A stretch of DNA of 64,000 nt from an uncultured Actinomycetes bacterium (GCA_963751665.1 CAVVVF010000004.1:210141-274140); one strand, 5' to 3'. Positions 22-48,950 are shown, numbered from the stretch's first letter. Numbers and translations: made by a program. Notes: a model not told the origin generated them from the letters alone.

Positions 22-50
22 TTGCCGCCCCCACCGGGGCCACCTATACT
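22..50 (+). promoter_or_regulatory. candidate sigma70-type promoter for tRNA-Trp/secE (TTGCCG - 17 bp - TATACT)
   Basis: -35-like TTGCCG at 22-27, 17-bp spacer, -10 TATACT at 45-50, about 40 nt upstream of the tRNA. By-eye motif match only. Confidence 0.4.
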
Positions 51-3525: not shown

Positions 3526-4235
3526 GCGGCAAGCGGTACCGCGAGGCGGCCAAGCTGGTGGACCGGGAGCGGGAGTACCTGCCGGCCGAGGCCGTCCGGC
3601 TCATCAAGCAGTTCCCCGACGCGAAGTTCGACGAGACCGTGGAGCTCGCGCTCCGACTGGGGGTGGACCCCCGCAAGGCGGATCAGATGGTCCGCGGTAC
3701 GGTGACCCTCCCGCACGGGACGGGCAGGTCGGTGCGGGTCGCGGCCTTCGCCACCGGCCCCAAGGCCACCGAGGCCAAGGAGGCGGGGGCCGACATCGTG
3801 GGCGGCGAGGAGCTCGTCGAGGAGGTCATGAAGGGGAACATCGACTTCGATGCCACGGTCGCAACCCCGGACATGATGGCCACGGTGGGCAAGGCAGGCC
3901 GGGTCCTCGGGCCCCGGGGTCTCATGCCGAACCCGAAGACCGGGACGGTCACGAACGACATCGGCAAGGCCGTTCGCGACATCAAGGGCGGCAGGGTCGA
4001 GTACAAAGTGGACAAGACGGGGAACCTGCACACGATCGTCGGGAAGCGCTCGTTCTCCGAACAGCAGCTGCTGGAGAACTACCTGGCGGTCGTGGACGAG
4101 GTCCTCCGGGCCAAGCCCTCGGCGGCCAAGGGCAAGTACGTGATCAGCGCGACCGTCGCTCCGACCATGGGCCCGGGCATCCCCCTCGACACGAACCGGC
4201 TGAAGGACGCCGAAGCGGCGGCCGTGCCGGCGTAG
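3522..4235 (+). CDS. rplA: 50S ribosomal protein L1
   Basis: Intact 237-aa ORF with L1 sequence (...[29 protein letters not shown]...). GTG start overlaps the rplK stop. Confidence 0.95.
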
Positions 4236-4241
4236 GCGGGC

Positions 4242-4493
4242 TCAGCCGGTGTGCCGGTGGCCGCCCATGTGATCGTCCAGACGCCCCGCGAGCGAATCCA
4301 ACCGTGCGTCGAGTCGGGCCGCGAGTGCGTCGATCCGCGAGCCAAGCTCCGCCCCCTGGGCCTCGATCTTCGAGCCGAGAGCGTCGATCTTCGTGCCGAG
4401 GTAGACGAAGAACGTGACGGAGATTGCCGCCAACACCGCCAGCGTCGCCCATGTGGCCGCCATGTCTCCGACCATAGCACCCAGGGGTGACAT
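4242..4493 (-). CDS. hypothetical small membrane-anchored coiled-coil protein
   Basis: 83-aa ORF with an N-terminal TM segment (WATLAVLAAISVTFFVYLG). This is followed by repeated IDALxxxI/L heptad-like units and a C-terminal HMGGHRH. GC3-rich codon usage fits the host. No family recognised. Confidence 0.4.
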   Translation of the reverse strand: MSPLGAMVGDMAATWATLAVLAAISVTFFVYLGTKIDALGSKIEAQGAELGSRIDALAARLDARLDSLAGRLDDHMGGHRHTG

Positions 4494-4616
4494 TCCGAGG
4501 CCGGTGTCGCCCGCTGGGGGCCTCGTGTGGCCGAGGCTTCTGCTGGGTGCTCCGCCTGTTCAAACTAGCAACCGCCGCCGACGGGGAAGCTCGGAGAGGG
4601 CGTCGATGCGGGCTCC

Positions 4617-4682
4617 GAGATCCGCCCCCTGCGCGGCGATGGCGCCTCGGAGATCCGCCCCCTGCGCGGCGATGGCGCCTCG
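4617..4682. repeat. perfect 33-bp tandem duplication (GAGATCCGCCCCCTGCGCGGCGATGGCGCCTCG x2)
   Basis: Copy 1 is 4617-4649 and copy 2 is 4650-4682, identical by direct reading. Intergenic, just upstream of conserved module A. Confidence 0.9.
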
Positions 4683-4700
4683 GGGCTCTGGGGCCGGGAA

Positions 4701-4800
4701 GATGGGCCGAAAGACCTAGGCCCCTCGCCATTGCCGAAATCCCCTGTCCAGCCGACCATGCGTAGGTCAAGGCGGTTACTGCTGCCAGGCCGAGTGGGCT
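4701..4800 (+). promoter_or_regulatory. conserved module copy A (palindrome/hairpin + -35/-10-like boxes + CGTAGGTCA + TACTGC box) upstream of pilB
   Basis: Aligns without gaps to 10505-10605 and 12436-12535. Boxes: GGGCCGAAAGACCTAGGCCC 4704-4723, TTGCCG 4731-4736, GACCAT 4754-4759, CGTAGGTCA 4761-4769, TACTGC 4777-4782. The pilB start lies about 90 nt downstream. Confidence 0.7.
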
Positions 4801-4887
4801 ACAGTGTGCATCCACTCGGGCCGACGGGCATAGCAGTGAGTCGCTGGTCCACAGGGGGATCGGACAACCGCAGGGGGATATCTTTCG

Positions 4888-6696
4888 ATGACAAGGGGAG
4901 CTAGCGAACGTTCGGGCCTGGCCGAACACGGTGAGGAGACCGACCAGGATTCAGGTGCGACCGGATCCGACATCTGGGCCCGCCCGGCGGAACCTGTGGA
5001 CGAGCAGCAGCTCAACGGCGAGCGGAAAGCGGGCAGGCTCGGCGATCTCCTCGTCGAACGGGAGCTGATCACCCAGAGCCAGCTGGGAGAGGCGCTCCTC
5101 CAGCAGCCCGCTTCGGGCAAGCCCCTTGGCTCGCTGCTGGTTGAGCTCGGCGCCCTCGACGAGCTCGCGCTCGCTCGCGTGCTCGCGGAGCAGCTCGGCG
5201 TGCCGCTGGCGGACCTGAGGAAAGACGCGCCCGACGATGCCGCCATCGCGATCCTGCCGGAATCCGTCGCCAGGGCGCACACGGCGATCCCGATCCGCAA
5301 AACAGACTCCGGGCTCGAGGTGGCGATGCCCGATCCGCTGGACCGGGCAGCGATCGCGGAGATCTCCGAAGCGGTGAAGACCAACGTCATCGGCTTCATC
5401 GCCCCAGCCTCGGATATCCGGCGGGCCATCGACAAGGCCTATCGAGCGATCACGGCGGTCGAACGGCACGTTGAAGCGTTCCTCGCAACCGAGGCCATCA
5501 CGAGTCGGGCCCTTCAGGAACAGGATGTCGCAGAGAACGCACCCGTCGTCAAGGTCGTGAACCTCATCATCACGCAGGCGGTGCGAGACCGGGCCTCGGA
5601 CATCCACATCGAACCGCAGGATTCGCGGGTTCGGGTTCGGTACCGGATCGACGGCGCGCTCCATGACGTGCTGGCCCTCCCGCCGAACATGGGGCCGGCC
5701 GTGGTCAGCCGGATCAAGGTCCTCGCGGAGATGAACATCGTCGAGCGTCGCCGTCCACAGGACGGGAAGATCGCCATGGAGGTGGACGGTCGCTCGATCG
5801 ACCTGCGCGTGGCGACGGCGGCAACGATCTGGGGCGAGAAGGCCGTGATGCGGCTGCTGGACAAGAGCCGCTCCCTCTTCCGCCTGGACGAGCTGGGGAT
5901 GGAGGAGGACATCCACGGGGCTTTCTCGCGCGCGATCCGAACCCCGTTCGGCATGGTGATCTGCGCCGGCCCGACCGGGAGCGGGAAGACCACCACCCTC
6001 TACGCCACCCTGGCAGAGATCAACATGAGCGAGCGCAACATCATGACGGTGGAGGACCCGGTCGAATACACGTTGCCCTCCATCAACCAGATCCAGATCC
6101 ACGACCAGTCCGGCATCACGTTCGCCGGCGGGCTGAAGGCCATCCTCCGTCAGGATCCCGACGTCATCCTCGTCGGCGAGATGCGGGACGTGGAGACGGC
6201 TCGCATCGGGGTCCAGTCCGCGCTCACGGGGCACCTCGTGCTGACGTCGCTGCACGCGACCGATACGGCAGGTGCCCTCCAGCGGTTCCTGGACATGGGC
6301 ATCGAGTCGTTCCTGGTCGCCTCGGCCGTCGTGGGGGTGCTCGCGCAGCGCCTGGTCCGCCGGATCTGCCCGTCCTGCAAGGTCCCGTACACGCCGTCGG
6401 TGGAGGAACGCCAGTTCTACGAGGACGCGGGCGGCCCCCTCAAGGCTGTCTTCTGGCATGGCGAAGGGTGCAACTTCTGTTTCCGGACCGGCTACGAGGA
6501 CCGGATCGGGGTCTACGAGCTGCTTCGCGTCACCGAGGAGATCAAGGAGTTGCTGCTTCGAAAGGCCCCCCACGACGAGCTTCGAGCGATGGCCGTCAGC
6601 CAGGGCATGCGGACGCTCCTCGATGCAGGGATCCGATTGGTTGCCGACGACGTCACCACCATCTCCGAGGTGGTGCGGAGCATCTACACCGTGTGA
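4888..6696 (+). CDS. pilB: type IV pilus assembly ATPase PilB (GspE-family secretion ATPase)
   Basis: Intact 602-aa ORF with a T2SSE_N-like N-domain (LGDLLVERELITQSQLGEAL...). Also Walker A GPTGSGKTTT and the tetracysteine motif CPSCK...GCNFC. Followed by pilC. The exact start is uncertain. Confidence 0.9.
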   Translation: MTRGASERSGLAEHGEETDQDSGATGSDIWARPAEPVDEQQLNGERKAGRLGDLLVERELITQSQLGEALLQQPASGKPLGSLLVELGALDELALARVLAEQLGVPLADLRKDAPDDAAIAILPESVARAHTAIPIRKTDSGLEVAMPDPLDRAAIAEISEAVKTNVIGFIAPASDIRRAIDKAYRAITAVERHVEAFLATEAITSRALQEQDVAENAPVVKVVNLIITQAVRDRASDIHIEPQDSRVRVRYRIDGALHDVLALPPNMGPAVVSRIKVLAEMNIVERRRPQDGKIAMEVDGRSIDLRVATAATIWGEKAVMRLLDKSRSLFRLDELGMEEDIHGAFSRAIRTPFGMVICAGPTGSGKTTTLYATLAEINMSERNIMTVEDPVEYTLPSINQIQIHDQSGITFAGGLKAILRQDPDVILVGEMRDVETARIGVQSALTGHLVLTSLHATDTAGALQRFLDMGIESFLVASAVVGVLAQRLVRRICPSCKVPYTPSVEERQFYEDAGGPLKAVFWHGEGCNFCFRTGYEDRIGVYELLRVTEEIKELLLRKAPHDELRAMAVSQGMRTLLDAGIRLVADDVTTISEVVRSIYTV

Positions 6697-6704
6697 GGTG
6701 ACGG

Positions 6705-7910
6705 ATGACCACGTTCAAGTACACGGCGGTGAAACCGGATGGCCAGCGGGTTCGCGGCAATACGCGGGCCGACACGATCAAGCTGGCCATGGCCGGCTTG
6801 ATGGACCAGTCCTTCGACGTCGTCGATCTGAAGGAGAGCAAGAGCGTCCTCCAGTTCGAGATCACGAAGAAGAAGCTGCCGCCTGCCGAGGTGATGCACT
6901 TCTCGCGGCAGCTCGGGGCGTTCGTCCGGGCCGGCGTCCCCCTGATCGAGGCCATCGAGGTGATCGAGGAGGAGGCGGAGAACAAGGTCCTGCGGCGGGT
7001 CCTGGCGGCCGTTCGCGAGGAGCTCCGCACGGGGGAGACCTTCTCCTCTGCGCTTGCACCGTTCCAGACCATGTTCCCGCAGTTCTACGTGGACATGCTT
7101 CGGGCAGCGGAGCTGACCGGGACCCTCGACAACGTGCTCGACGAGATCTCCCGCTACATCGAGCGCGATCTCGACGCCAGGCAGAAGATCAGGTCCGCGA
7201 TGGTCTACCCGCTCGTGGTACTGGTCATGGCGATCATCACCATCACCGTGCTTGCCGTATACGTCCTGCCCCGCTTCAAGGACTTCTTCGCGTCGCTCGG
7301 CGCCAAGCTTCCGCTCCCCACCCGCATGCTGATCGGACTGACGGACTTCCTGGGGAATTGGTGGTGGGCACTGTTGGGCGGGATCGTCCTGATCGTGGTG
7401 GGCTTCGCCCTCCTGTTCAGGGCGCACTGGGGCCGGAGGCTGCGGGATCGCACCCTCCTGAAGCTGTGGGTGGTCGGGGAGGTCGTCCGGTACACGATCG
7501 TGGAGCGCTTCTGCCGGCTGCTGGCGTCGATGATGGAGGCCGGCGTCCCCCTCCCCGAAGCCATGACGGTCCTCGGCCGGGGGACGAACAACGTGATCTT
7601 CCAGGAAGGCCTGGCCTCCGTCCGCGAGGCGATGGTCCGGGGCCAGGGGATCGCGGCGCCGATGGCGGCCTCGAAGCTGTTCCCGGGAGCGGTGATCCAG
7701 ATGGTGCGCGTGGGGGAGGACACCGGGTCGCTCGACCAGCAGCTGGAAGCCGCCGCCGCCTACTTCGACAAGGAGCTCGACTACAAGATCAAGAAGCTCA
7801 CCTCTCTCTTCGAGCCCGCGGTGATCCTGTTCATGGGGCTCATCGTGGGCTTCGTGGCGATCGCGCTCGTCTCTGCCATGTACGGCATCTACAACCAGGT
7901 GAATATCTAA
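6705..7910 (+). CDS. pilC: type IV pilus platform protein PilC (GspF family)
   Basis: Intact 401-aa ORF with two GspF-type repeats and three TM segments. Typical motifs are FSRQLGAFVRAGVPLIEAI and FCRLLASMMEAGVPLPEAM. Confidence 0.9.
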   Translation: MTTFKYTAVKPDGQRVRGNTRADTIKLAMAGLMDQSFDVVDLKESKSVLQFEITKKKLPPAEVMHFSRQLGAFVRAGVPLIEAIEVIEEEAENKVLRRVLAAVREELRTGETFSSALAPFQTMFPQFYVDMLRAAELTGTLDNVLDEISRYIERDLDARQKIRSAMVYPLVVLVMAIITITVLAVYVLPRFKDFFASLGAKLPLPTRMLIGLTDFLGNWWWALLGGIVLIVVGFALLFRAHWGRRLRDRTLLKLWVVGEVVRYTIVERFCRLLASMMEAGVPLPEAMTVLGRGTNNVIFQEGLASVREAMVRGQGIAAPMAASKLFPGAVIQMVRVGEDTGSLDQQLEAAAAYFDKELDYKIKKLTSLFEPAVILFMGLIVGFVAIALVSAMYGIYNQVNI

Positions 7911-9364
7911 TGAGTACGGCCCGTTCCAGAGCCGAAAGGAGGCGGGCGGGGCTGAACGCCGTCGCCGCCCGCATGAGGAGGGACGACGGCTTCACGCTCA
8001 TCGAGCTGCTCATCGGGACGGTCATCCTCGGCATCATCATCGGGGCGATCGCGCAAGCCCTCATCGTGGGGTTCACCACAACGGGCGATACGTCCCAGCG
8101 CTTCTCCGAGAGCCATGACGCCCAGATCAGCTCCGCTTACCTGGCCAACGACGTCCAGAGCGCGAAGACGGTCTCGGTCGCGGCGGGCGGCTCGAGCTGC
8201 GCCTCGGCGACGAATCTGGTCGACTTGACCTACTCGGACGGGAAGGTCGCCTCCTATTCCTGCGGGCCGTCCGGGGGTGAGACGAGGGTGACGCGTACCT
8301 TCGATGGAACCACGGTCGTGCTGGCCCACTTCGCCGGGGTCGGCAAGCCTACCGTGACGTGCAGCCCGAGCTGCGGCACGTCCACGCCGGTCCGCGTCGA
8401 CATCGCGTTCACCGAGGCGAGCGGCTACAGCTTCACGCTGGCAGGCTCGCAGAGGCTCACGAAGCCGAGCTCGCCGCCGCCGCCGCCGGGAGGGGGGGCG
8501 ACCGCGGACGTGACCCTCTTCGTGCTTCCCGGGGTCGGTGGCTCGAACACCCCGCTCTGGGTATCAGGGGGCTGCCCACCCGGGCAGATCGACAACCCCG
8601 GCAACCCCAACAACGACTGCACGTCCGATTCGGAGCAGGGTCCCCTCACGCGCCCGCACCTCACGGTCAGGGGGAACCTGTACGTCAACTCGCCCGTGAA
8701 CGGCGCGGTCCGGCTCTCCGGGATGAAGAGCCAGGAGAAGCTCGCGGTATCCGACGGCGGCGATTTCAAGATCCTGCAGGGAGGGACGTGTCAGGGCTGC
8801 ACCCCGCAGACCGTCACCTGCCCCGCGTGCTCGACCTTCCCGTACGGGTCGTACTCGCCGGCCCTGCTCGACCCGTTGCGGTTCATGGCTCCTCCACCTC
8901 AAAGCGGCCCCGGGATCTACGTCCACACGGGCACGTTCAACATCTCGGGCAACACGAGCCTTCCCGCGGGGATCCACATCCTGAAGGCCGGGATGAACGT
9001 GAACGGGAACGCGAACGTCAGCGTGAGCGGGACCGGCGGGATCATGTTCTACAACGAGTCGGGCTCGATCAGCTTCGCCGGTGGGTCGCGGTTCAACCTC
9101 CCAGCCTACGATGCGGCCCCGTACAAGAACATCCTGATCTTCCAGGCCCGCACGAACACGAACGACCTCAGCCTGAGCGGCGGAACGAACGTTGCATCCA
9201 AGTTGGGGGGGGTCATCTACGCGCCGAACGCCGGCCGGGTCGTGCTCGGAACGGGGGGCGCGAACCTCGAGGTGACGGCGGTCATCGCCCAGGGCATCAA
9301 GGTGATCGGCACCACGCAGGTGACGATCGGTCCCCCGGTCGCCGTTTCCATCCCCGGTCCCTGA
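7910..9364 (+). CDS. large minor pilin / pseudopilin with prepilin-type N-terminal domain and ~450-aa C-terminal domain
   Basis: ATG overlaps the pilC stop (ATGA-type coupling). Class III signal ...DDGFTLIELLIGTVILGIIIGAI. Pro-rich linker PSSPPPPPGGG and Cys cluster TCQGCTPQTVTCPAC. C-terminal GGVIYAPNAGRVVLGTGGANLEVTAVIAQGI resembles TadG-like pilus tip proteins. Confidence 0.75.
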   Translation: MSTARSRAERRRAGLNAVAARMRRDDGFTLIELLIGTVILGIIIGAIAQALIVGFTTTGDTSQRFSESHDAQISSAYLANDVQSAKTVSVAAGGSSCASATNLVDLTYSDGKVASYSCGPSGGETRVTRTFDGTTVVLAHFAGVGKPTVTCSPSCGTSTPVRVDIAFTEASGYSFTLAGSQRLTKPSSPPPPPGGGATADVTLFVLPGVGGSNTPLWVSGGCPPGQIDNPGNPNNDCTSDSEQGPLTRPHLTVRGNLYVNSPVNGAVRLSGMKSQEKLAVSDGGDFKILQGGTCQGCTPQTVTCPACSTFPYGSYSPALLDPLRFMAPPPQSGPGIYVHTGTFNISGNTSLPAGIHILKAGMNVNGNANVSVSGTGGIMFYNESGSISFAGGSRFNLPAYDAAPYKNILIFQARTNTNDLSLSGGTNVASKLGGVIYAPNAGRVVLGTGGANLEVTAVIAQGIKVIGTTQVTIGPPVAVSIPGP

Positions 9365-9369
9365 CAGTC

Positions 9370-9825
9370 ATGGGTGCCCGACGTGTGCTCGACGACGAGG
9401 CGGGCTTCTCCCTCCCGGAGGTCCTCATCACGATCGCCATCGTCGGGATCGCTTTCGCGGCGATCCTCGGCGGCATGCTGACGTCGATCGTCGTGTCGGA
9501 CGTGCACCGCAAAGAGGCCACGGCGGACGCGCTCGCGCGGAGCGCGGCCGAGCGGCTGAAGGACCAAGGCGTGGCCTACGTGAGCTGCGCCGGCTTGAAC
9601 GCCTACGACTCGGCGCTGCCCACCGCGCCGAGCTACATGGTCTCCGTGACCAGCCTCGAGGTGTGGAACGGCAACCTGACCGCCGGTGCAGCGCCCGAGC
9701 CGGTCTTCGCGCAGTCCGGCCCGGGATGCCCGGACCAGGGTGTCCAGCGCATCACTATCGTCGCCTCCGCGACCGACGGTCGGGCGACCGAGACCGTCCA
9801 GATCCTCAAGCGGCAGGGCACGTGA
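9370..9825 (+). CDS. minor pilin / pseudopilin (prepilin-type N-terminal cleavage/methylation domain)
   Basis: 151 aa with N-terminus ...DEAGFSLPEVLITIAIVGIAFAAILGG (G-F-S-L-P-E prepilin motif plus hydrophobic helix). Confidence 0.75.
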   Translation: MGARRVLDDEAGFSLPEVLITIAIVGIAFAAILGGMLTSIVVSDVHRKEATADALARSAAERLKDQGVAYVSCAGLNAYDSALPTAPSYMVSVTSLEVWNGNLTAGAAPEPVFAQSGPGCPDQGVQRITIVASATDGRATETVQILKRQGT

Positions 9826-10271
9826 TGGGCGGGTTCCGAGTGAGGCTCCGCGACGAGGACGGCCAGGCTCTCCTGCTCGCGCTCGGATTCATCCTGTTCT
9901 TCGGGCTTGTGATCCCGGCGATCCTCGGCTTCGCGGAGGCGAGCGTCCGCGCGACGACCGCCCTCCGCGAGCAGCGTAACATCGTGTACGCGGCCGACGG
10001 CGCGATGGATGGGGCGATCCAATACGGGCGCCGGAACCCCGCCGTGGGGGCCTACGGAGCCGTTCCATGCATCGCGTACTCCGCCACCCTGAACGGCAAG
10101 ACGGCCACCGTGACGTGCGTCTCGGTCGGGAGTCCGACCAGCATGGATCGCCTGGTCACGTTCACCGCGTCCGTGGACGGGGTGGCCCGCGTCCAGGCCG
10201 AAGTCGTCTTCTTCGGCTCCACGGCCACGCCGGCCCCCGTTCGTGTCATCTCCTGGACGTACCGTCGGTAG
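9825..10271 (+). CDS. pilus-associated small membrane protein (pilin-like hydrophobic N-terminus, no canonical G/FxxxE site)
   Basis: 148 aa. ATG overlaps the upstream stop (GTGATG). N-terminal helix ALLLALGFILFFGLVIPAILGF. Translational coupling to the minor pilins suggests an operon member. Family not recognised. Confidence 0.55.
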   Translation: MGGFRVRLRDEDGQALLLALGFILFFGLVIPAILGFAEASVRATTALREQRNIVYAADGAMDGAIQYGRRNPAVGAYGAVPCIAYSATLNGKTATVTCVSVGSPTSMDRLVTFTASVDGVARVQAEVVFFGSTATPAPVRVISWTYRR

Positions 10272-10504
10272 GTCGCGCTGAAGGACCGATATCCCGCCGA
10301 CGGCGGACGCGACCGACCGGGACCGAACCGTCTATTCACGGCCTCGGTCGGGGGGCGTGCCGTAGGTCAGGGCCAACGTGCGGTTCTACGACGGCACCGG
10401 TGCCGTACCCCTTCCCGTTGACGTGCTTTCCTGGACGGTTCTCGGGTAGCGGCAGCCGGCCCCGGGATCGGCGACTGTGACTGCAAGGGCTGTTGGACCA
10501 AAGA

Positions 10505-10605
10505 ATATGGGCCGAAAGACCTAGGTCTTCCGCGATTTACAAGATCCCCTTCTCGACCCACCATTCGTAGGTCAACACGACTACTGCCGGTAGGCCGACT
10601 TCCCC
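10505..10605 (+). promoter_or_regulatory. conserved module copy B upstream of pilA (perfect 14-bp palindrome AAGACCTAGGTCTT)
   Basis: Boxes: GGGCCGAAAGACCTAGGTCT 10509-10528, TTTACA 10536-10541, CACCAT 10559-10564, CGTAGGTCA 10566-10574, TACTGC 10582-10587. pilA ATG at 10739. Confidence 0.7.
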
Positions 10606-10738
10606 GCCCCAGACCAAACGGGGGAGAGGGGTCTCCCGGCGGCGGAAGGGCCGTGCAGAAGGGGGTGAACCGTCGAGAGCCGGCCAGGCATCGCGCATAC
10701 GTACTAACTGACAAGGCAATCGTCTAAGGAGGGGGTAA

Positions 10739-11164
10739 ATGAACGAGCGCGTAAGGCGCGCAAGAGAGGATCAGGGGGGTTTCACCCTGATCGAGTTGAT
10801 GATCGTGATCATCATCCTCGGCGTCCTGGCCGGGATCGTGATCTTCTCTGTCCGGGGAATCACGGACCGAGGCAATGTGGCGGCCTGCAAGGCCGACCTC
10901 AGTGCCATCACGACGGCGGTCGAAGCGTATCGCACGCAGAATCCAGGCTTCCCGCCTGACCTCGTGCCGAGCCTGACCTCAGGTACCAACGTGTTCCTCC
11001 GTTGGGATTCCGGCTTCACGGGGACTACCGCTGCCGATGGCCCGGCCGGGTCGACCAGCTCTGTGCATGTCGGGGGGTCGGGGACCACCACGTGGACGAT
11101 CACCTATCACCCGGTCGCGGGGACCGGTTTCGCTGCCGGAGACGTCACGACGACCGACTGTTAG
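10739..11164 (+). CDS. pilA: type IV major pilin
   Basis: Intact 141-aa ORF with strong RBS AAGGAGGGGG. Class III signal ...EDQGGFTLIELMIVIIILGVLAGIVIF, a C-terminal Cys and a Gly/Thr/Ser-rich surface region. Confidence 0.85.
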   Translation: MNERVRRAREDQGGFTLIELMIVIIILGVLAGIVIFSVRGITDRGNVAACKADLSAITTAVEAYRTQNPGFPPDLVPSLTSGTNVFLRWDSGFTGTTAADGPAGSTSSVHVGGSGTTTWTITYHPVAGTGFAAGDVTTTDC

Positions 11165-11200
11165 TACGCCTCGGGCAGGTCAGTAAGGAGCCAAACGTGG

Positions 11201-11231
11201 GAGCCCGGCGACCAACCGGGCTCTCACTCTT
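11201..11231. terminator. bidirectional intrinsic-terminator-like hairpin between convergent pilA and pilT
   Basis: GAGCCCGG (11201-11208) - CGACCAA - CCGGGCTC (11216-11223), followed by TCACTCTTTAT. Confidence 0.5.
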
Positions 11232-12331
11232 TATGGGGTCGCTGCCGGCTGGACACCATGCCCCGCGGGAGGCTTCGCGACCTCCTTGGGGTAGATGCTC
11301 CTCGCCACGGCCTCCTCGTAGGTGACCACGCCCCGGGTCACCAGGGCGGACAGGGCCATCTCCAGGGTCTGCATCTGGTCCTGGACACCGGTGGCCACCA
11401 CGTTTCGGATCTGGTGGCTCTTGCCGCCCCTGATCAGGTTCCGCACCGGGTGGGTGGCGACCAGGACCTCGAACGCCGCGACCTGTCCGCCGCCGATCCT
11501 GGGGAGGAGCTGCTGGTAGAGGACTCCCACCAGCGTGTTGGCGAGCTGCACCCGGATCTGGTTCTGGCTCTCCTGGGGGAAGACGTCCACGATCCTGTCC
11601 ATGGCCTGCGCCGTGTCGTTCGTGTGAAGCGTGGCGAAGACCAGGTGGCCCGTCTCGGCCAGGCTGAGGGTGGTCTGGATCGTCTCGAGGTCCCGCATCT
11701 CCCCCACCAGGAGCACGTCGGGGTCCGCCCGGAGTGCCGAGCGGAGGGCTCGCGGGAACGAGACCGTGTCCTGGCCCACCTCCCGTTGGTTCACGGCGGC
11801 CTTCTTGTGCTTATGGACGTACTCGATGGGGTCCTCGATGGTGATGATGTGGCAGGCCCGGTGGTTGTTGATGTAGTCGATCATCGAAGCGAGGGTCGTC
11901 GACTTCCCGGCCCCGGTCGGACCGGTCACGAGCACGAAGCCCTGCCGGATCGTGACGAACCGCTCGATGATCGGCGGCAGGCCGAGGTCCTCGAACGAGG
12001 GGATCTCGAACGGGATCAACCGGAGCGCGAGGCCCATCGAGCCGCGCTGGACGAACGCGTTCGCTCGGAACCGCGCCTTCCCTTCCCAGTTGAAGGAGAA
12101 GTCCACGTCGAGTAAGGCGCGGTAGTCCTCATGGAGCTTCTCGGGCAGGACGGTGAGGACGATCTTCTCGACATCCTCGGGCGTGAGCCGGGCCGACCCG
12201 TTCGCGGGGCGGGGAGTGCCGTCCACCCGAAGGAGCGGCGGAGCTCCTGCGGTCACCAGGAGGTCGGTCCCGTGGAGGTCCCACAGCTCCTGGAGGTAGG
12301 GGTCGATCGGCGTCGTCGTCGTGGTGGCCAT
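11231..12331 (-). CDS. pilT: type IV pilus retraction ATPase PilT
   Basis: Intact 366-aa ORF with Walker A GPTGAGKSTT, a PilT-type core (...HIITIEDPIEYVH...LLVGEMRDLETI...TGHLVFATLHTNDTAQA) and AHPVRNLIRGGK-like motif. Confidence 0.9.
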   Translation of the reverse strand: MATTTTTPIDPYLQELWDLHGTDLLVTAGAPPLLRVDGTPRPANGSARLTPEDVEKIVLTVLPEKLHEDYRALLDVDFSFNWEGKARFRANAFVQRGSMGLALRLIPFEIPSFEDLGLPPIIERFVTIRQGFVLVTGPTGAGKSTTLASMIDYINNHRACHIITIEDPIEYVHKHKKAAVNQREVGQDTVSFPRALRSALRADPDVLLVGEMRDLETIQTTLSLAETGHLVFATLHTNDTAQAMDRIVDVFPQESQNQIRVQLANTLVGVLYQQLLPRIGGGQVAAFEVLVATHPVRNLIRGGKSHQIRNVVATGVQDQMQTLEMALSALVTRGVVTYEEAVARSIYPKEVAKPPAGHGVQPAATP

Positions 12332-12435
12332 GGGCGAAGTATGCCAGGGGGGGCAAGTGCCTCGGAGGTGGCCCGCCGCCCATCGTTGTGCCTAGAGCGA
12401 CTTGCCGCCGATGGAGGGGACGAGGGGCCCCGGGG

Positions 12436-12535
12436 AAGATAGGTCTAAAGACCTAGGCCTCCAGCTATTGCTAGACAGTGCTCCACGGACGACCATACGT
12501 AGGTCACTGGGCCTACTGCTCGTAGGTGGGCTCCT
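12436..12535 (+). promoter_or_regulatory. conserved module copy C upstream of the giant S8/DUF11 surface-protein gene (divergent from pilT)
   Basis: Boxes: AGGTCTAAAGACCTAGGCCT 12441-12460, TTGCTA 12468-12473, GACCAT 12491-12496, CGTAGGTCA 12498-12506, TACTGC 12514-12519. Gene ATG at 12618. Confidence 0.7.
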
Positions 12536-12617
12536 TTGTCTTGGGCACTGATCGGGGGACAAGGGGCCACGGGGGCGCGGCAAGTGGCGCTCGCTTCATT
12601 TGAGAGAGGGAGAAGGT

Positions 12618-15600
12618 ATGAGAGGGGCTCGAAACAGACGCCGAGAGCGGGAACTCCTTCTAGCAAAGGTCACGAGGGTCCTCGGCCCTCTTCCTCAGAG
12701 GGCATGGCGCCTGCGAACGACACACAAGACGCTGATCGTTTTCGTCATCCTCGGCATGATCGTCTCGATCGTCGGGCCCGTAGCTTTCGCAGACGACACT
12801 GCACCGGACGCGACGCCGACCGAGAGTCCTTCTCCGCCACCGACCGACACACCCGCACCGTCGCCAACCGATAGTCCGAGTCCTTCCCCAACCGACACCG
12901 CCAGTCCCTCTCCAGCCGATAGCCCTTCGCCGACCGACAGCCCTTCGCCGTCCGATACCGCGAGTCCTTCTCCTTCTCAAACCCCCAGTGCTTCTCCGAC
13001 CCCGTACTCCGGTCCGACCGCGAGCATCATCGTTCAGACGGTCCCGGGGCTGACCAAGCCACAGCAGGCCGACGTGATCGCCAGGGACGGGGGCGTGGAG
13101 AGTTCGTCGATCCCGGTCCTCCGGCTGCACGTGGTGGACGTGCCCGCAGGCGAGGTGAGCTCGTACGCCGACGCGTACGCGGCCGACCCCGACGTGGCAA
13201 GCGTTGACCGGGACCGGACGCGAGACGCTGAGGCGACCCCTTCCGACCCGGCGTACGGAGACCAGTGGTCGCTGCCGCAGATCGGCTGGGACCAGGTCTA
13301 CGGGTCGGTACAGCCGACCGGGTTCGCGACGCTCGCCGTCCTCGACACCGGCGTCGACGCCGATCTCGGATCTCCGGGCCGGTTCGTCACCGGATGGTCA
13401 GCATTCGGGACCGATCCGAAGAGCGACCCGAACGGCCACGGCACCTGGCTGGCTCGAGCATCGCCGCGGCCGACACCGACAACGCGAACGGGCATCGCCG
13501 GCGTCGCGTACGACGGCGTGAAGGTCATGCCGGTCACAGGTCCTCGGACGCGAGCGGCCAGGGCCAGGACAGCGACATCATCAAGGGCCTCGTCTGGGCC
13601 GTGGACCACGGCGCGAACGTCGTGCTGATGGGCTTCAGCAACCCAGGCTTCAGCGACGCCCTGCAGGCCGCGGTCGACTACGCGTGGGCGCAGGGCGTCG
13701 TGCTCGTGGCCGCGACCGGCAACGACGGTGTCGTCGACACCCACCTACCCGGCCGGCGACGCCGGGGTCGTCGGCGTGTCGGCGACCGACCAGACCGACG
13801 CGCTGTGGAGTGGCAGCAACTACGGCGCGGACGCGTTCCTCGCGGCCCCCGGCGTCGGCGATCCCGACCGACGACGTCGGCGGCGGGACGACGAGCTGAC
13901 GGGAACCTCGGCCGCCGCCGCGCACGTCGCGGCAGCCGCCGCGCTGATGCGGGCCGTCGACCCGAGCGCCTCGAACGGCGTCATCGTCGGCCGCCTGGCC
14001 CGGAACGCCGATCCGGCCGGCACGGCAGACCAGACCGGCAACGGCCGCCTGAACCTCGCCCGCGCGATCGCCGACACGTCGACGCGATCCGGTCAGTCCC
14101 GCACGGGGCCCCCGGCGGCGGCCCGCTCGTCGGGCCGTATGTCGCGGGTCTGACTGGTGCCTACACGTTCAAGCTGACGGGCGCCGATCCATCCAAGTAC
14201 ACGATTAAGCCTCCTTCCCAGCAGCCGTGCCCGACACCGGCGAACGCCATCGGCACCGGCACGGCGAGCAACCCGATCCCTGGCGCGGACTGGTCGACGG
14301 GTCTCACCTCGCTTGCTCCGGAAAGGCTGGGCTGGGGCCAGGTCGTGCCGCTCGAGGTGCAGGTGACGGTAAACGGGAACACCACGCCCGAGAACGGCGT
14401 GGTCGCGTTCACCATGGATCTGGCCGGACGCACGTCCGGCGGCACCGACAAGAACTTCGGTTTCGACCCCGCATACGGTATCTACTGTGCGTTTGTAGAC
14501 ACGGGTGACGGCTCTTCGGTCGATCCGGGGGCGGATGCGAGGGTCGATTCCTACCGATTCCGTCGTGAGTCCAAATACGGACAATGAGAAGACGACAGGC
14601 ACCATCCAGCTCTCCGGTCTGAACAGTGGCGACACCGTCATCGTTGAGGTGTGGGGGGTCCTCAAGACCTCGGCTCCCCACTGCGAACGGGAACGTCCAG
14701 GTCGGCATGGTGAACTTCACGACGTGCGTGACGACGAATCCCTGTGCGGGCAGCACCGGCAGTATCGGCAACCAGACGATCGCGATCAAGAACGTTCAGG
14801 TTTTCTTCAGCCAGGCCTCTGCCGACGTCTCGGTCACGAAGAGCGATAGCCCCGACCCGGTCGTGCTCAACGGAACGCTCACGTACACGATTACCGTCAA
14901 GAACAACAACAGCACGGCTGACGAGAATCGTCGCCAACGGCGTCGCGATCCTCGACACCATCGATCCGCAGACCACATTCGTTCCTCCCGATCCGGGCAA
15001 TCCGAGTACGACTTCGAGCCCCGGCTGCACGCTCTCGTCGGGCGTGGTCACCTGTTCGATTGGGTTCCTGAGCGCCCAGCAGACCGTCACCCGAACGATG
15101 CGTGACACCGTCAAACCGACCGCACCCACCGCGGGAACGGTTCAGGACCGGGACCTGCGTGGCAAGTGGCAACCGGCCGTGCGACCTCTCGCAACAAAGT
15201 GAGCCTGCGATACGGCGGGTTCGAGCGGGCCACGCACTCCGGATCCGAACAGCGCCAACGACAGTCGACTCGAGCCCACGAACGTCCTTCCGACGGCCGA
15301 CCTGGCGATCACGAAGAGACGACGACCACGATCGCCGACAGGGGAAGCACTCTCACCTACACGATAACGATCACCAATATCGGCCCGAGCAGGGGACCGG
15401 TGGCGACCGTCAGCGACACGTTCGATTCGACAAAGTTTTCGAGCGAGTCTTGGAGCTGCTCGGTGTCACCTGGGCCGCGGGCAACTTTGCGGGACGCCAG
15501 CCTCCGGCAACACCGGGAACATACAACCGCGCGATCAACCTGAATAGCGGCGCCGCGCGACATCCACAGTCACGGCTGTTGTCAGCGCGACGGCGACCGG

Positions 15601-18600
15601 AACGATCTCAAACACCGCCGGCGTTCAGGTTCCGGCCGGGACTACCGACTCGGACACTAGCAATAAAGACAACGCCACCGCCAACACGCCGGTTCGCACC
15701 ACCAAGCTCGCGGTTACGAAGAGCGACAGCCCTGACCCTGTGAGCCCCGGCGGTACTCTGACCTGACGATCGAGGTCACGAACAACGGACCCCACGCCGT
15801 GACGAACGCCTCGAGTAACCGATTCGTTCGACACGACGAAGCTTCTCCACTATCAGTTGGACCTGCGTTGTCTCCCCGGTCGCCGCGGGCAACAGCTGCG
15901 GTGCGGCGAGCGGCGGTGGCGAAAAGAGCAACACAGACGGTCAGTCTGAATAAGGACGCGAAGGCGACATATACCGTCACGGCCACGGTCCTTTCGAGTG
16001 CGACCGGCACCATCTCGAATACAGCATCCGTGACTGCTCCGGCAACGACCGACGACAATGTCAGTGGCAACAACAGCGCGACTGCCACGACAGAAGTGAC
16101 CGCCTCGGCCGACCTGTCGATCGACAAGAAGGACTCGGCCGACCCCGTGGCGGCCGGGCACGAACTTCAGCTACACCCTCGACGTCTCGAACGGCGGGCC
16201 CTGGGCGCCCACAACGTCAAGGTCGTGGACACCCTGCCGGCCGGCGTCACGTTCGTCTCGGCCTCGGGCGGGGCCACCTGGTCCTGCGCCTACAGCATCA
16301 TCACCAACAAGGTCACCTGCGACCTGACCGGGACCCTCGCCTCCGGCGCCTCGGCCGCCACGATCACCGTCACGGTGAAGGCCCCGAACAGCCCGAGGTC
16401 CTGTCCAACTCGGCCACCGTGTCCTCCACGACGAGCGACCCGGTGGCCGCCAACAACACCGACACCGAGACCACCACGGTCAACGCCTCGGCCGACCTGT
16501 CGATCGACAAGAAGGACTCGGCCGACCCCGTGGGCGGGTCCGGCACGAACTTCAGCTACACCCTCGACGAGCTCAAACGGCGGGCGCCTCGGGTTAGCCG
16601 ACACAACGTCAAGGTCGTGGACACCCTGCCGGCCGGCGTCACGTTCGTCTCGGCCTCGGGCGGGGCCGCCTGGTCCTGCGCCTACAGCATCATCACCAAC
16701 AAGGTCACCTGCGACCTGACCGGGACCCTCGCCTCCGGCGCCTCGGCCGCCACGATCACCGTCACGGTGAAGGCCCCGAACGAGCCCGAGGTCCTGTCCA
16801 ACTCGGCCACCTGGTCCTCCACGACGAGCGACCCGGTGGCCGCCAGCACAACACCGACACCGAGACCACCACGGTCAACGCCTCGGCCGACCTGTCGATC
16901 GACAAGAAGGACTCGGCCGACCCGTGGCGGCCGGCACGAACTTCAGCTACACCCTCGACGTCTCAAACGGCGGGCCCTCGGGCGCCCACAACGTCAAGGT
17001 CGTGGACACCCTGCCGGCCGGCGTCACGTTCGTCTCGGCCTCGGGCGGGGCCACCTGGTCCTGCGCCTACAGCATCATCACCAAGCAAGGTCACCTACGA
17101 CCTGACCGGGACCCTCGCCTCCGGCGCCTTCGGCCGCCACGATCACCGTCACGGTGAAGGCCCCGAACGAGCCCGAGGTCCTGTCCAACTCGGCCACCGT
17201 GTCCTCCACGACGAGCGACCCGGTGGCCGCCAACAACACCGACACCGAGACGACCACGGTCAACGCCTCGGCCGACCTGTCGATCGACAAGAAGGCGCGG
17301 CCGACCCCGTGCGGCCGGCACGAACTTCAGCTACACCCTCGACGTCTCAAACGGCGGGCCCTCGGGCGCCCACAACGTCAAGGTCGTGGACACCCTGCCG
17401 GCCGGCGTCACGTTCGTCTCGGCCTCGGCGGGGCCACCTGGTCCTGCGCCCCCCAGCGCTCATCACCGACAAGGTCACCTGCGACCTGACCGGGACCTCG
17501 CCTCCGGCGCCTCGGCCGCCACGATCACCGTCACGGTGAAGGCCCCGAACGAGCCCGAGGTCCTGTCCAACTCGGCCACCGTGTCCTCCACGACGAGCGA
17601 CCCGGTGGCCGCCAACAACACCGACACCGAGGCCACCACGGTCAACGCCTCGGCCGACCTGTCGATCGACAAGACAGGACTCGGCCGACCCCGTGGCGGC
17701 CGGCACGAACTTCAGCTACACCCTCGACGTCTCAAACGGCGGGCCCTCGGGCGCCCACAACGTCAAGGTCGTGGACACCCTGCCGGCCGGCGTCACGTTC
17801 GTCTCGGCCTCGGGCGGGGCCACCTGGTCCTGCGCCTACAGCATCATCACCAACAAGGTCACCTGCGACCTCGACCGGGACCCTCGCCTCCGGCGCCTCG
17901 GCCGCCACGATCACCGTCACGGTGAAGGCCCCGAACGAGCCCGAGGTCCTGTCCAACTCGGCCACCGTGTCCTCCACGACGAGCGACCCGGTGGCCGCCA
18001 ACAACACCGACACCGAGGCCACCACGGTCAACCGCCTCGGCCGACCTGTCGATCGACAAGAAGGACTGCGGCCGACCCCGTGCCGGCCGGCACGAACTTC
18101 AGCTACACCCTCGACGTCGCAAACGGCGGGCCCTCGGGCGCCCACAACGTCAAGGTCGTGGACACCCTGCCGGCCGGCGTCACGTTCGTCTCGGCCTCGG
18201 GCGGGGCCACCTGGTCCTGCGCCTACAGCATCATCACCAACAAGGTCACCTGCGACCTGACCGGGACCCTCGCCTCCGGCGCCTCGGCCGCCACGATCAC
18301 CGTCACGGTGAAGGCCCCGAACGAGCCCGAGGTCCTGTCCAACTCGGCCACCGTGTCCTCCACGACGAGCGACCCGGTGGCCGCCAACAACACCGACACC
18401 GAGGCCACCACGGTCAACGCCTCGGCCGACCTGTCGATCGACAAGAAGGACTCGGCCGACCCCGTGGCGGCCGGCACGAACTTCAGCTACACCCTCGACG
18501 TCGCAAACGGCGGGCCCTCGGGCGCCCACAACGTCAAGGTCGTGGACACCCTGCCGGCCGGCGTCACGTTCGTCTCGGCCTCGGGCGGGGCCACCTGGTC

Positions 18601-39770: not shown

Positions 39771-39799
39771 TTGACCTCGGACCCGGGGAGGAGTACCCT
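39771..39799 (+). promoter_or_regulatory. candidate rpoB promoter P1 (TTGACC - 17 bp - TACCCT)
   Basis: Hexamers at 39771-39776 and 39794-39799. By-eye match to -35 TTGACA and actinobacterial -10 TANNNT. Confidence 0.45.
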
Positions 39800-39832: not shown

Positions 39833-39861
39833 TTGACTTGGCGTGTCTCGGACCCTATACT
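39833..39861 (+). promoter_or_regulatory. candidate rpoB promoter P2 (TTGACT - 17 bp - TATACT)
   Basis: Hexamers at 39833-39838 and 39856-39861, near consensus. About 70 nt upstream of the rpoB TTG start. Confidence 0.55.
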
Positions 39862-48920: not shown

Positions 48921-48950
48921 TTGACGGGCGTGCGTCGTGCCTAGTAGCCT
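48921..48950 (+). promoter_or_regulatory. candidate promoter of the rpsL-rpsG-fusA-tuf operon (TTGACG - 18 bp - TAGCCT)
   Basis: Hexamers at 48921-48926 and 48945-48950, about 170 nt upstream of rpsL. Confidence 0.4.

What the first reader, a model, noticed from the sequence alone, without database searches (positions are those of the whole stretch)
4701..12535. One ~100-bp module repeated upstream of the pilB operon, pilA and the giant adhesin gene: a candidate shared operator plus weak promoter
Three + strand intergenic segments (4701-4800, 10505-10605, 12436-12535) align without a single gap. The pattern is (G/A)GG(C/T)C-(G/T)AAAGACCTAGG, 9 nt, ATTGCC/ATTTAC/ATTGCT, then ACCAT-N-CGTAGGTCA, 7 nt, TACTGC-Y-NN-YAGG. 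The distance from ...CCTAGG to ACCAT is exactly 34 nt in all three copies. Read as DNA, each copy has a -35-like hexamer (TTGCCG/TTTACA/TTGCTA), a 17-bp spacer and a poor -10-like hexamer (GACCAT/CACCAT/GACCAT). Each also has a palindrome, perfect in copy B (AAGACCTAGGTCTT), centred about 13 bp upstream of the -35. The housekeeping promoter candidates in this window (22-50, 39771-39799, 39833-39861, 48921-48950) have TANNNT -10 boxes. The three island promoters therefore look activator-dependent and co-regulated, tying pilus assembly, the major pilin and the giant adhesin into one regulon. I do not recognise this motif as a described operator.
Basis: partly seen in the sequence, partly recalled or inferred. 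Interest (0 to 1): 0.78.

Follow-up and report, generated by a model that had tools for sequence, protein, structure and literature searches.

The report
Shared promoter-operator cassette for pilus genes
A conserved stretch of about 95 bases sits in front of three transcription units of a type IV pilus gene cluster in an uncultured actinobacterium, and it most likely acts as one promoter-plus-operator cassette, copied three times, that puts the three units under a single unidentified regulator.

Summary
Three gapless copies (4698-4792, 10503-10597, 12435-12529) lie upstream of pilB-pilC, pilA and a subtilase/DUF11 surface-protein gene. A profile built from orthologues of one copy finds the other two (E 1e-9 to 1e-14) and nothing else in the window.

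The same three copies sit at the same positions in related metagenome contigs. Against the most distant of these (PilA 67% identical), the modules are 85-94% identical. That matches or exceeds the coding DNA (70-87%) and exceeds the flanks.

Each of 15 distinct copies has TT(G/T)NNN, exactly 17 bp, then (G/C)ACCAT, which keeps A-11 and T-7. O1 is centred near -55 and O2 near +5, over the predicted start.

An RNA reading is not supported: there is no Rfam hit, folding is weak and the stems are not kept consistently. No known operator consensus fits.

Best reading: a sigma-A-type promoter bracketed by two operators for an unknown regulator. Whether it activates or represses is undetermined. This is a new operator motif in a narrow lineage, of moderate interest.

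The parts
4698..4792 (+). Module copy A, upstream of pilB-pilC (pilB ATG at 4888)
   Evidence: Gapless alignment; nhmmer hits; 94% identical to L015 copy A against 61% and 79% for the flanks
4703..4718 (.). O1 of copy A: TGGGCC-GAAA-GACCTA. The right arm is invariant; the left arm matches TAGGTC at 4 of 6. Centre about -55 from the predicted start
4731..4736 (+). -35-like hexamer TTGCCG of copy A (the same hexamer as in the tRNA-Trp promoter at 22-27)
4754..4759 (+). -10-like hexamer GACCAT of copy A, 17 bp after the -35. Predicted start near 4766, giving a 5' UTR of about 122 nt
   Evidence: the start site is inferred, not mapped
4763..4778 (.). O2 of copy A: TAGGTC-AAGG-CGGTTA. The left arm is invariant and the right arm is degenerate (only TA kept)
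10503..10597 (+). Module copy B, upstream of pilA (ATG at 10739)
   Evidence: 87% identical to L015 against 16% for the upstream flank
10508..10523 (.). O1 of copy B: TGGGCC-GAAA-GACCTA.
10536..10541 (+). -35-like hexamer TTTACA of copy B
10559..10564 (+). -10-like hexamer CACCAT of copy B. Predicted start near 10571, giving a 5' UTR of about 168 nt
   Evidence: inferred
10568..10583 (.). O2 of copy B: TAGGTC-AACA-CGACTA
12435..12529 (+). Module copy C, in the divergent region between pilT (minus strand) and the subtilase/DUF11 gene (ATG at 12618)
12440..12455 (.). O1 of copy C: TAGGTC-TAAA-GACCTA, a perfect inverted repeat (it also reads as 7-2-7, TAGGTCT-AA-AGACCTA)
   Evidence: 0 mismatches
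12468..12473 (+). -35-like hexamer TTGCTA of copy C
12491..12496 (+). -10-like hexamer GACCAT of copy C. Predicted start near 12503, giving a 5' UTR of about 115 nt
   Evidence: inferred
12500..12515 (.). O2 of copy C: TAGGTC-ACTG-GGCCTA (5 of 6 complementary). In L015 and L007 it is TAGGCC...GGCCTA (6 of 6)
4888..6696 (+). pilB (T2SSE plus MshEN ATPase), first gene downstream of copy A; followed by pilC at 6705-7910
10739..11164 (+). pilA (prepilin with an N-terminal methylation motif), downstream of copy B
11231..12331 (-). pilT-like ATPase, transcribed away from copy C. It has its own conserved CATACT box (12343 to 12338 on the minus strand) ending 7 nt before its ATG
12618..22550 (+). Gene downstream of copy C: signal/anchor region, S8 subtilase and many DUF11 repeats, split over several frames in this window. 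The start region and Shine-Dalgarno sequence are conserved in five orthologues

Best explanation
The module is a promoter-operator cassette acting as DNA, present in three diverged copies that drive pilB-pilC (plus minor pilins), pilA and the subtilase/DUF11 surface-protein gene.

Each copy has a housekeeping-type (sigma-A) core promoter: a -35 of TT(G/T)NNN, exactly 17 bp, and a sub-optimal -10 of (G/C)ACCAT. The -10 keeps the two critical positions (A-11, T-7) but lacks T-12.

The core promoter is bracketed by two copies of one 16-bp inverted repeat, consensus TAGGTC-N4-GACCTA. O1 is centred about 55 bp upstream of the predicted start and O2 about 5 bp downstream of it. Their centres are exactly 60 bp apart in 12 of the 15 distinct copies and 61 bp in three A-type orthologues that carry a 1-nt insertion.

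One dimeric or tetrameric DNA-binding regulator, not identified here, is inferred to bind both sites and so co-regulate pilus assembly, the major pilin and the surface protein. Because O2 covers the start site, I lean towards repression, possibly reinforced by O1-O2 cooperation. Activation from O1 at a weak -10 is nearly as likely.

Shown here: the repeat, its anatomy, its conservation and its restriction to pilus loci. Inferred: promoter activity, start sites, protein binding and the sign of regulation.

The cassette probably spread from the pilB promoter. More distant relatives have an O1-like repeat and a NAGGAT -10 upstream of pilB only.
For: - Three copies and no others in 64 kb; leave-one-out profiles find each other at E 1e-9 to 1e-14.
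- The same three positions are occupied in L011 and L015. B and C are present in L012, L014, L019 and L007, and A and B in L002.
- Window against L015: modules 94/87/85% identical, coding genes 70-87%, flanks 16-79%.
- The footprint against L002 starts sharply at the module edge.
- In 15 of 15 distinct copies the -35-like TT(G/T) is exactly 17 bp from the invariant (G/C)ACCAT. The spacer sequence differs between paralogues.
- Housekeeping promoters in the window are TTGNNN-17/18-TANNNT, including TTGCCG.
- The other conserved A...T hexamer (GAAKAT) has no -35 partner in any copy.
- O1 is perfect in the C copies. O2 in the C copies changes from TAGGTC..GGCCTA to TAGGCC..GGCCTA in L015 and L007, which completes the local inverted repeat.
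- Distant relatives keep the repeat upstream of pilB with matched changes in both arms: GGCC-GAAA-GGCC in L024 and TACGTC-AAAG-GACGTA in L016. A NAGGAT -10-like box follows, preceded by a clear -35 (TTGCGC, 18 bp) only in L016.
- All seven real hits of a metagenome-wide pattern scan are A or B copies with the expected module and leader sequence. L007 also carries a C copy.
Against: - No transcription start or binding data exist for this lineage.
- The -10 lacks T-12, and ACCAT is invariant beyond what a -10 box alone needs. It may therefore belong to a protein site or to another sigma factor's motif.
- In the A and B copies the outer arms of O1 and O2 are degenerate (2-5 of 6), so only the inner arms GACCTA and TAGGTC are firmly conserved.
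- A 60-bp spacing is not an integral number of helical turns at 10.5 bp per turn.
- The matched arm changes in distant lineages would also fit a hairpin.
- The source genome outside this window could not be scanned, so a wider regulon or a repeat family elsewhere is not excluded.
Confidence: 0.6

Rival explanations
1. The module is transcribed and acts as RNA. It would be a shared 5' leader (riboswitch-like or attenuator element, or a protein-binding leader), with the promoter at or upstream of GAAKAT. Its hairpins would be GGUC-GAAA-GACC, UAGGUC-N4-GGCCUA and CCUAC-N5-GUAGG, the last two sharing the CCUAC segment and therefore mutually exclusive.
For: - A long-range stem GACCUA/UAGGUC plus an outer helix is 91.5% paired across 15 copies, with some double changes.
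- The O1 stem has a GNRA-type GAAA loop and matched arm changes in L024 and L016.
- The U-to-C change in O2 of L015 and L007 is RNA-compatible.
- Copy C of the window has a terminator-like hairpin followed by a T-rich tail.
- In L002, copy A begins about 25 nt after the rplA stop codon, so read-through is possible.
Against: - No Rfam family matches, at gathering or relaxed thresholds.
- Folding z-scores are only -0.7 to -2.1, and the three predicted structures share no common fold.
- The inner long-range helix never covaries and has three uncompensated breaks. One outer pair is broken in 8 of 15 copies.
- The 4-bp O1 stem has one or two mismatches in most A and B copies.
- The T-tail after copy C is not conserved.
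- GAAKAT has no -35 partner, and a start 7 nt after it would fall inside the outer helix.
- The strictly spaced TTG-17-ACCAT pair would be unexplained.
Confidence: 0.13
2. The module is the promoter of an alternative sigma factor (an ECF or group-3 type). The invariant blocks (GACCTAGG, ACCAT, TAGGNCA) would be its -35 and -10 elements rather than operators.
For: - The invariance of ACCAT and TAGGNCA exceeds what a sigma-A -10 needs.
- From my own knowledge, pilin genes use dedicated sigma factors in some phyla: sigma-54 in proteobacteria and SigF in Synechocystis.
Against: - I found no pair of invariant blocks with the spacing of the alternative-sigma consensuses I compared by hand from memory (GGAAC-N16-18-CGT/GTT, GTTT-N14-16-GGGTAT, TAAA-N15-GCCGATAA). 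No tool call was made for this.
- A classical TTG lies at exactly 17 bp from an A-11/T-7 hexamer.
- No sigma-factor gene was seen among the called or Pfam-scanned genes next to the pilus cluster in the window or in L011, L015, L016 and L024. The rest of the window was not scanned.
Confidence: 0.12
3. The module is a small non-autonomous mobile repeat (MITE- or REP-like) with terminal inverted repeats (..GACCTA / TAGGTC..). It happens to lie in three intergenic regions and has no dedicated regulatory role.
For: - The inner arms GACCTA and TAGGTC form an inverted pair 44 bp apart.
- Its size of about 75-95 bp is typical of such elements.
Against: - There are only three copies in 64 kb, all in the same orientation relative to the downstream gene and 115-170 nt from its start codon.
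- The orthologous positions are kept across lineages with PilA 67% identical.
- Conservation is block-wise, with divergent spacers, and equals or exceeds that of coding DNA.
- No real hit in the scans of 185,579 species genomes and of JGI metagenomes lies outside a pilus locus.
Confidence: 0.05
4. The three direct repeats are sites for site-specific recombination that deletes or rearranges pilus genes (phase variation).
For: - The three copies are direct repeats that flank pilB through the minor pilins and pilA-pilT.
- L011 carries a phage-type integrase 4 kb downstream.
Against: - Gene order between the copies is identical in all related contigs, and no deletion variants were seen.
- The integrase is absent from the corresponding part of the window and belongs to an inserted block in L011.
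- The copies are only about 75% identical.
Confidence: 0.03

Closest known systems
Operator-flanked sigma-70/sigma-A promoters with one site upstream of the -35 and one over the start (as in gal OE/OI or lac O1/O3; own knowledge)
   Same: The same inverted repeat occurs twice and brackets a -35/-10 pair. One copy covers the start site and the spacing between the two is fixed.
   Different: The sequence motif TAGGTC-N4-GACCTA is not a described operator. The regulator is unknown. The 60-bp spacing is shorter than in classical repression loops. Nothing has been tested experimentally.
Promoter reuse / 'mobile promoters' (Nijveen, Matus-Garcia and van Passel, Mob Genet Elements 2012, PMC3575422)
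   Same: A highly similar promoter sequence lies upstream of non-homologous genes within one genome, which rewires them to one regulatory input.
   Different: The three copies are old (about 75% identical to each other) and each is conserved across lineages. All sit within one 8-kb gene cluster rather than being scattered or associated with mobile elements.
DasR/NagR dre sites of GntR/HutC regulators (consensus contains TGGTCTAGACCA; PMC4398421, PMC4333415)
   Same: The half-sites are alike: GGTCT/AGACC occurs in O1 of the C copies (AGGTCT-AA-AGACCT). The host phylum (Actinobacteria) is shared.
   Different: The arm spacing differs by 2 bp. The best ungapped match to the 16-bp dre consensus is 10 of 16, no better than shuffled sequence.
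IdeR/DtxR iron box TTAGGTTAGGCTAACCTAA (PMC4598388; bioRxiv 10.1101/163170)
   Same: The outer arms TAGGT...ACCTA are the same pentamers as in O1.
   Different: The arms are separated by 6 nt here and by 7 nt in the iron box. The best ungapped match is 8-10 of 19, equal to shuffled sequence.
NarL/DosR-type sites of LuxR/GerE-family response regulators (7-2-7 heptamer pairs; DosR box TTSGGGACTWWAGTCCCSAA; own knowledge)
   Same: O1 of the C copies reads as a 7-2-7 inverted repeat. A REC plus GerE response regulator is encoded in the same island in the window and in L011.
   Different: The match to the DosR box is no better than shuffled sequence. The regulator gene is frameshifted in the window. 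It is absent from the neighbourhood of distant loci that keep an O1-like repeat.

Membership tests
Sigma-70/sigma-A-type promoter | -35 hexamer resembling TTGACA (at least TTG) | tested here: met
   TTGCCG, TTGCCC, TTGCTA, TTGCCA and TTGCAA in the A and C copies; TTTACA in the B copies. Found in 15 of 15 distinct copies. The window's tRNA-Trp promoter uses TTGCCG.
Sigma-70/sigma-A-type promoter | Spacer of 17 +/- 1 bp between the hexamers | tested here: met
   Exactly 17 bp in 15 of 15 copies, although the spacer sequence differs between paralogues.
Sigma-70/sigma-A-type promoter | -10 hexamer of the form TANNNT (T-12, A-11, T-7) | tested here: inconclusive
   (G/C)ACCAT keeps A-11 and T-7 but not T-12. 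The consensus scan reported no site in 4200-13000. The five housekeeping-type promoter candidates in the window all have TANNNT.
Sigma-70/sigma-A-type promoter | Transcription starts 6-8 nt downstream of the -10 | not testable with these tools
   No transcript data are available for this lineage.
Transcription-factor operator | Inverted repeat of 14-20 bp, recurring at co-regulated promoters at a fixed position | tested here: met
   TAGGTC-N4-GACCTA occurs with 0-2 mismatches at the same offset in all three copies. It is perfect in the C copies of four of the five lineages. O2 is 60 bp downstream.
Transcription-factor operator | A cognate protein binds it | not testable with these tools
   Requires EMSA, DAP-seq or pull-down.
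Known structured RNA (Rfam 15) | Match to a covariance model | tested here: not met
   Only tRNA-Trp reaches a gathering score in the window. No hit overlaps a module at E <= 10.
Novel structured cis-regulatory RNA | Conserved secondary structure supported by compensatory changes | tested here: inconclusive
   91.5% of cells are paired, but the inner helix is invariant with 3 breaks and one outer pair is broken in 8 of 15 copies. Folding z-scores are -0.7 to -2.1.
Intrinsic terminator / attenuator | GC-rich hairpin followed by a conserved U-tract | tested here: not met
   The hairpin plus T-rich tail is clear in copy C of the window and L011. The tail is lost in L015 and L007, and it is absent from the A and B copies.
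MITE / REP-type repeat | Many dispersed copies without gene association | tested here: not met
   There are 3 copies in 64 kb and 3 in each related locus, all at the same positions. Collection-wide scans gave only pilus-linked real hits. The complete source genome could not be scanned.
DasR dre (GntR/HutC) operator | Match to the 16-bp consensus ASTGGTCTAGACCAST | tested here: not met
   Best match 10 of 16; shuffled mean 9.1-9.2, maximum 12-14.
IdeR/DtxR iron box | Match to the 19-bp consensus TTAGGTTAGSCTAACCTAA | tested here: not met
   Best match 8-10 of 19; shuffled mean 9.3-9.8.
DosR box / actinobacterial SOS box | Match to TTSGGGACTWWAGTCCCSAA or TCGAAC-N4-GTTCGA | tested here: not met
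   Best matches are 11-14 of 20 and 11-13 of 16, within the range of shuffled sequence.
Reused ('mobile') promoter | Homologous promoter region upstream of non-homologous genes in one genome | tested here: met
   The downstream genes are pilB (T2SSE), pilA (prepilin) and an S8/DUF11 protein. The modules are homologous.

The most novel reading that the evidence does not exclude
The module, or at least its O1 and O2 hairpins, might function as RNA: a new class of shared 5' leader controlling type IV pilus transcripts in uncultured Actinobacteria. The CCUAC segment can pair either with the upstream GUAGG (the O2 hairpin, blocks 4-5) or with the downstream GUAGG (blocks 5-6), so the two hairpins exclude each other and could act as a switch. 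The matched arm changes of the O1 hairpin in distant lineages and the U-to-C change in O2 do not exclude this.
Probability: 0.12. Interest if true: 0.65.

Novelty: new member of a known kind. Interest (0 to 1): 0.4.

Why it matters
Little is known, to my knowledge, about how type IV pili are regulated in Actinobacteria. They lack sigma-54 (own knowledge), so the PilR/sigma-54 scheme of proteobacteria should not apply. My one literature search on this, and a search for the motif strings themselves, found no description for this phylum.

This cassette gives a concrete, testable cis-element with defined half-sites, positions and three natural variants. It can be used to fish out the regulator by DNA pull-down or DAP-seq, and to predict the pilus regulon in these uncultured bacteria.

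It links a large subtilase/DUF11 surface protein to pilus expression. It is also a clean natural example of one promoter-operator unit being copied within a gene cluster to wire separate transcription units to one input.

The impact is limited. The element is confined to a narrow uncultured lineage, and its kind (promoter plus operators) is ordinary.

Tried and rejected
- Rfam scans at gathering and relaxed thresholds gave nothing on the modules.
- Single-sequence RNA folding of both strands gave weak z-scores and no shared fold.
- RNAalifold suggested a long-range stem. Pair counting showed that it is mostly invariant, with uncompensated breaks. Two of those 'breaks' turned out to complete the local O2 inverted repeat instead.
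- The sigma-70 consensus scan found no promoter in 4200-13000.
- GAAKAT at the module's 5' edge was considered as an alternative -10. It has no -35 partner in any of 20 sequences.
- Minus-strand promoter readings (TTGACC as the reverse complement of GGTCAA) have no -10 partner. This was checked by eye.
- ECF, SigB/SigF, WhiG/FliA and sigma-54 consensus spacings were compared by eye from memory, and none fits.
- Known operator consensuses (dre, iron box, DosR box, SOS box) match no better than shuffled sequence.
- A literature search for the motif strings returned only unrelated primers and constructs.
- The genome-collection scan returned one chance hit (L001, Clostridia). The metagenome scan returned one chance hit inside a glycosyltransferase gene (L006).
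- The exact CGTAGGTCA at 10361 and at 40928 (inside rpoB) are not module copies.
- The 77-aa ORF between rplA and pilB was checked as a possible regulator. It is a membrane/coiled-coil protein, not a DNA binder, judged from the translated sequence.
- The source contig (658 kb) could not be retrieved, so the rest of the genome was not scanned.

Full report
**Context**

The window has 68% G+C. It carries tRNA-Trp, secE/nusG, rplK and rplA, then an inserted block, then rplJ/rplL, rpoB and rpoC.

Directly after rplA lies a type IV pilus cluster:
- pilB, 4888-6696
- pilC, 6705-7910
- a minor-pilin region, 7910-10271
- pilA, 10739-11164
- a pilT-like ATPase on the minus strand, 11231-12331
- from 12618, a large gene encoding a signal/anchor region, an S8 subtilase domain and many DUF11 repeats

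In this window the large gene is split over several frames. Its orthologue in L015 is intact for at least 1177 residues. The only named relative is a MAG labelled 'Actinobacteria bacterium AC_69' (L002).

**The observation**

The similarity is far beyond chance.
- Profiles built from orthologues of only one paralogue type find the other two window copies at E = 2.8e-14 to 1.5e-9.
- They find nothing else on either strand of the 64 kb.
- A profile of all 15 distinct copies also finds exactly three.

The best boundaries are 4698-4792, 10503-10597 and 12435-12529.

**Conservation in relatives**

Two collection-wide scans were run on the module pattern.
- The scan of 185,579 species genomes gave one real locus (L002) and one chance hit.
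- The metagenome scan gave seven real loci and one chance hit inside a glycosyltransferase gene.
- All real hits are A-type or B-type copies, with the same module and leader sequence as the window.

Contigs found through PilA homologues show the following:
- L011 (a close relative) and L015 (PilA 67% identical) each carry exactly three copies at the same three positions.
- L012, L014, L019 and L007 carry B and C.
- L002 carries A and B.
- L023 carries B.

Identity between the window and L015:

| Region | Identity |
|---|---|
| Module A | 94% |
| Module B | 87% |
| Module C | 85% |
| pilB, pilC, pilA, pilT coding DNA | 70-87% |
| Flanking intergenic DNA | 16-79% |

Against L002, the conservation of copy B begins sharply at the module edge. 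Copy C keeps a constant distance of about 102 nt from the pilT start. It lies about 90 nt upstream of a conserved Shine-Dalgarno sequence and ATG in five lineages, although the C-terminal part of that gene differs between genomes. The module is therefore under purifying selection at all three sites.

**Anatomy**

Alignment of 15 distinct copies shows invariant blocks separated by stretches that are conserved only within a paralogue type.

1. *Core promoter.* TT(G/T)NNN lies exactly 17 bp upstream of (G/C)ACCAT in 15 of 15 copies. The hexamer keeps A-11 and T-7 but not T-12. The five housekeeping-type promoter candidates in the window read TTGNNN-17/18-TANNNT; the one upstream of tRNA-Trp starts with TTGCCG, the same -35 as copy A. 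The only other invariant A...T hexamer, GAA(G/T)AT at the 5' edge, has no -35 partner in any of 20 sequences. It predicts starts near 4766, 10571 and 12503.

   - A different inverted repeat, TAGGTC-N4-GACCTA, is perfect in the C copies of four of the five lineages (5 of 6 in L007). It is present with an invariant right arm in all copies (O1: 4703-4718, 10508-10523, 12440-12455).
   - The same 6-4-6 repeat recurs exactly 60 bp downstream in 12 of the 15 copies, and 61 bp in three A-type orthologues that have a 1-nt insertion. This is O2 (4763-4778, 10568-10583, 12500-12515), with an almost invariant left arm.
   - O1 is centred near -55 and O2 near +5.
   - In the C copies of L015 and L007 the left arm of O2 changes from TAGGTC to TAGGCC. 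This makes it perfectly complementary to its right arm GGCCTA. The local repeat, not a long-range pairing, is therefore the conserved unit.

3. *No further sites.* No other O1-like site above chance occurs in the window, including upstream of the response-regulator gene (10 matches found, 14.5 expected).

**Wider relatives**

Lineages with PilA 56-65% identical have a different gene order: pilB-pilC-pilA, with pilT and the minor pilins on the other strand. They lack the module.

Upstream of pilB they nevertheless keep an O1-like repeat:
- GGCC-GAAA-GACC in L020
- GGCC-GAAA-GGCC in L024
- TACGTC-AAAG-GACGTA in L016

A NAGGAT -10-like hexamer follows in all three, and a clear -35 (TTGCGC, 18 bp upstream) precedes it only in L016. 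Both arms change together across these lineages. This suggests that the pilB promoter-operator is the ancestral unit. In the narrow clade of the window it was copied in front of pilA and the surface-protein gene. This is a case of promoter reuse (PMC3575422, found).

**RNA alternative**

Evidence against:
- No Rfam family matches.
- Folding energies are only 0.7 to 2.1 standard deviations below shuffled sequence, and the three minimum-energy folds differ.
- RNAalifold proposed a long-range stem. When counted, its inner helix is invariant with three uncompensated breaks, and one outer pair is broken in 8 of 15 copies.
- The 4-bp O1 stem is mismatched in most A and B copies.
- The terminator-like hairpin in copy C loses its T-tail in L015 and L007.

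Evidence that keeps it open:
- The GAAA loop of the O1 hairpin.
- The matched arm changes in distant lineages.
- The U-to-C change in O2.

I give this reading about 0.13.

**Other alternatives**

- *Mobile repeat.* This is unlikely, given three fixed, same-orientation, block-wise conserved copies and no dispersed hits.
- *Recombination sites.* These are unlikely because gene order is constant.
- *Alternative sigma factor.* This cannot be excluded, because ACCAT and TAGGNCA are more invariant than a sigma-A promoter requires. However, no known alternative-sigma spacing fits (compared by eye, from memory). No sigma-factor gene was seen among the called or Pfam-scanned genes next to the pilus cluster in the window or in L011, L015, L016 and L024.

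**Comparison with known operators**

- The half-site resembles GntR/HutC dre sites (TGGTCTAGACCA; PMC4398421, PMC4333415) and the arms of the IdeR iron box (PMC4598388), but with different spacing.
- Matches to the dre, iron-box, DosR-box and actinobacterial SOS-box consensuses are no better than shuffled sequence.
- A literature search for the motif strings found nothing relevant.
- The island's REC plus GerE response regulator is a legitimate candidate. However, it is frameshifted in this window, it has no operator upstream, and it is not near the distant loci that keep O1.

**Verdict**

A shared operator-plus-promoter cassette tying three pilus-locus transcription units together is the best reading (confidence about 0.6).
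- The operator is better described as two 16-bp inverted repeats bracketing the promoter. Activator dependence is not established, and O2 over the start site points at least as much to repression.
- This is a previously undescribed operator motif of an ordinary kind, confined to a narrow uncultured lineage. Interest is moderate (0.4).

Noticed in passing
window 24382-25012 (-), compared with L011 17428-18180 (-): The REC plus GerE (LuxR-type) response-regulator gene has one extra C after ...GTCCAG, which breaks the frame inside the receiver domain. The L011 orthologue is intact (250 aa). This is either an assembly indel or a real pseudogene.
   Followed up: partly
window 12618-22550 (+) and 7910-10271 (+): The S8-subtilase/DUF11-repeat gene and the minor-pilin region are split over several frames. 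Orthologues are intact (L015 9017-12547; L011 and L019 with 484, 151 and 148 aa). The window seems to carry many indel errors or decayed genes.
   Followed up: partly
window 12331-12343 (-): pilT looks leaderless. A CATACT box on the minus strand, invariant in five orthologues, ends 7 nt before the A of the ATG.
   Followed up: partly
L011 11870-14318, compared with window 12618 onward: The gene downstream of copy C keeps its Arg-rich and transmembrane N-terminus in all lineages. Its extracellular part is swapped: HYR/Big_3 domains in L011, against S8 plus DUF11 in the window and L015. In L011 it is followed by an HTH_17/integrase/PIN block.
   Followed up: partly
window 1586-2857 (-): A lower-GC (about 61%) AAA_14/DUF4143 ATPase gene is inserted between nusG and rplK. 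It is also present in L011.
   Followed up: no
window 4242-4475 (-) and 4613-4683: A 77-aa transmembrane/coiled-coil ORF lies between rplA and pilB. It is conserved in L011 and L015 and absent in L002, where module A starts about 25 nt after rplA. It is followed by a 33-bp tandem repeat (2.2 copies) just upstream of module A.
   Followed up: partly
window 4793-4887; L015 1414-1511: The pilB leader downstream of module A contains an invariant hairpin, CGAGTGG-N14-CCACTCG, and is 79% conserved against L015. It may be a separate element of the 5' UTR.
   Followed up: no
L016 9897-10000; L017, L018, L020, L022 pilC-pilA spacers: Distant relatives share a different conserved block upstream of pilA (GGGTGACGGAGGGAGGGATGTCTCACGC ...). 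pilA there appears to have its own, unrelated control region.
   Followed up: no
window 33106-34809 (+) and 36001-38031 (+): The same inserted block also encodes a collagen-triple-helix-repeat protein and a protein with six Big_3_5 domains. No module or O1-like site precedes either gene.
   Followed up: partly
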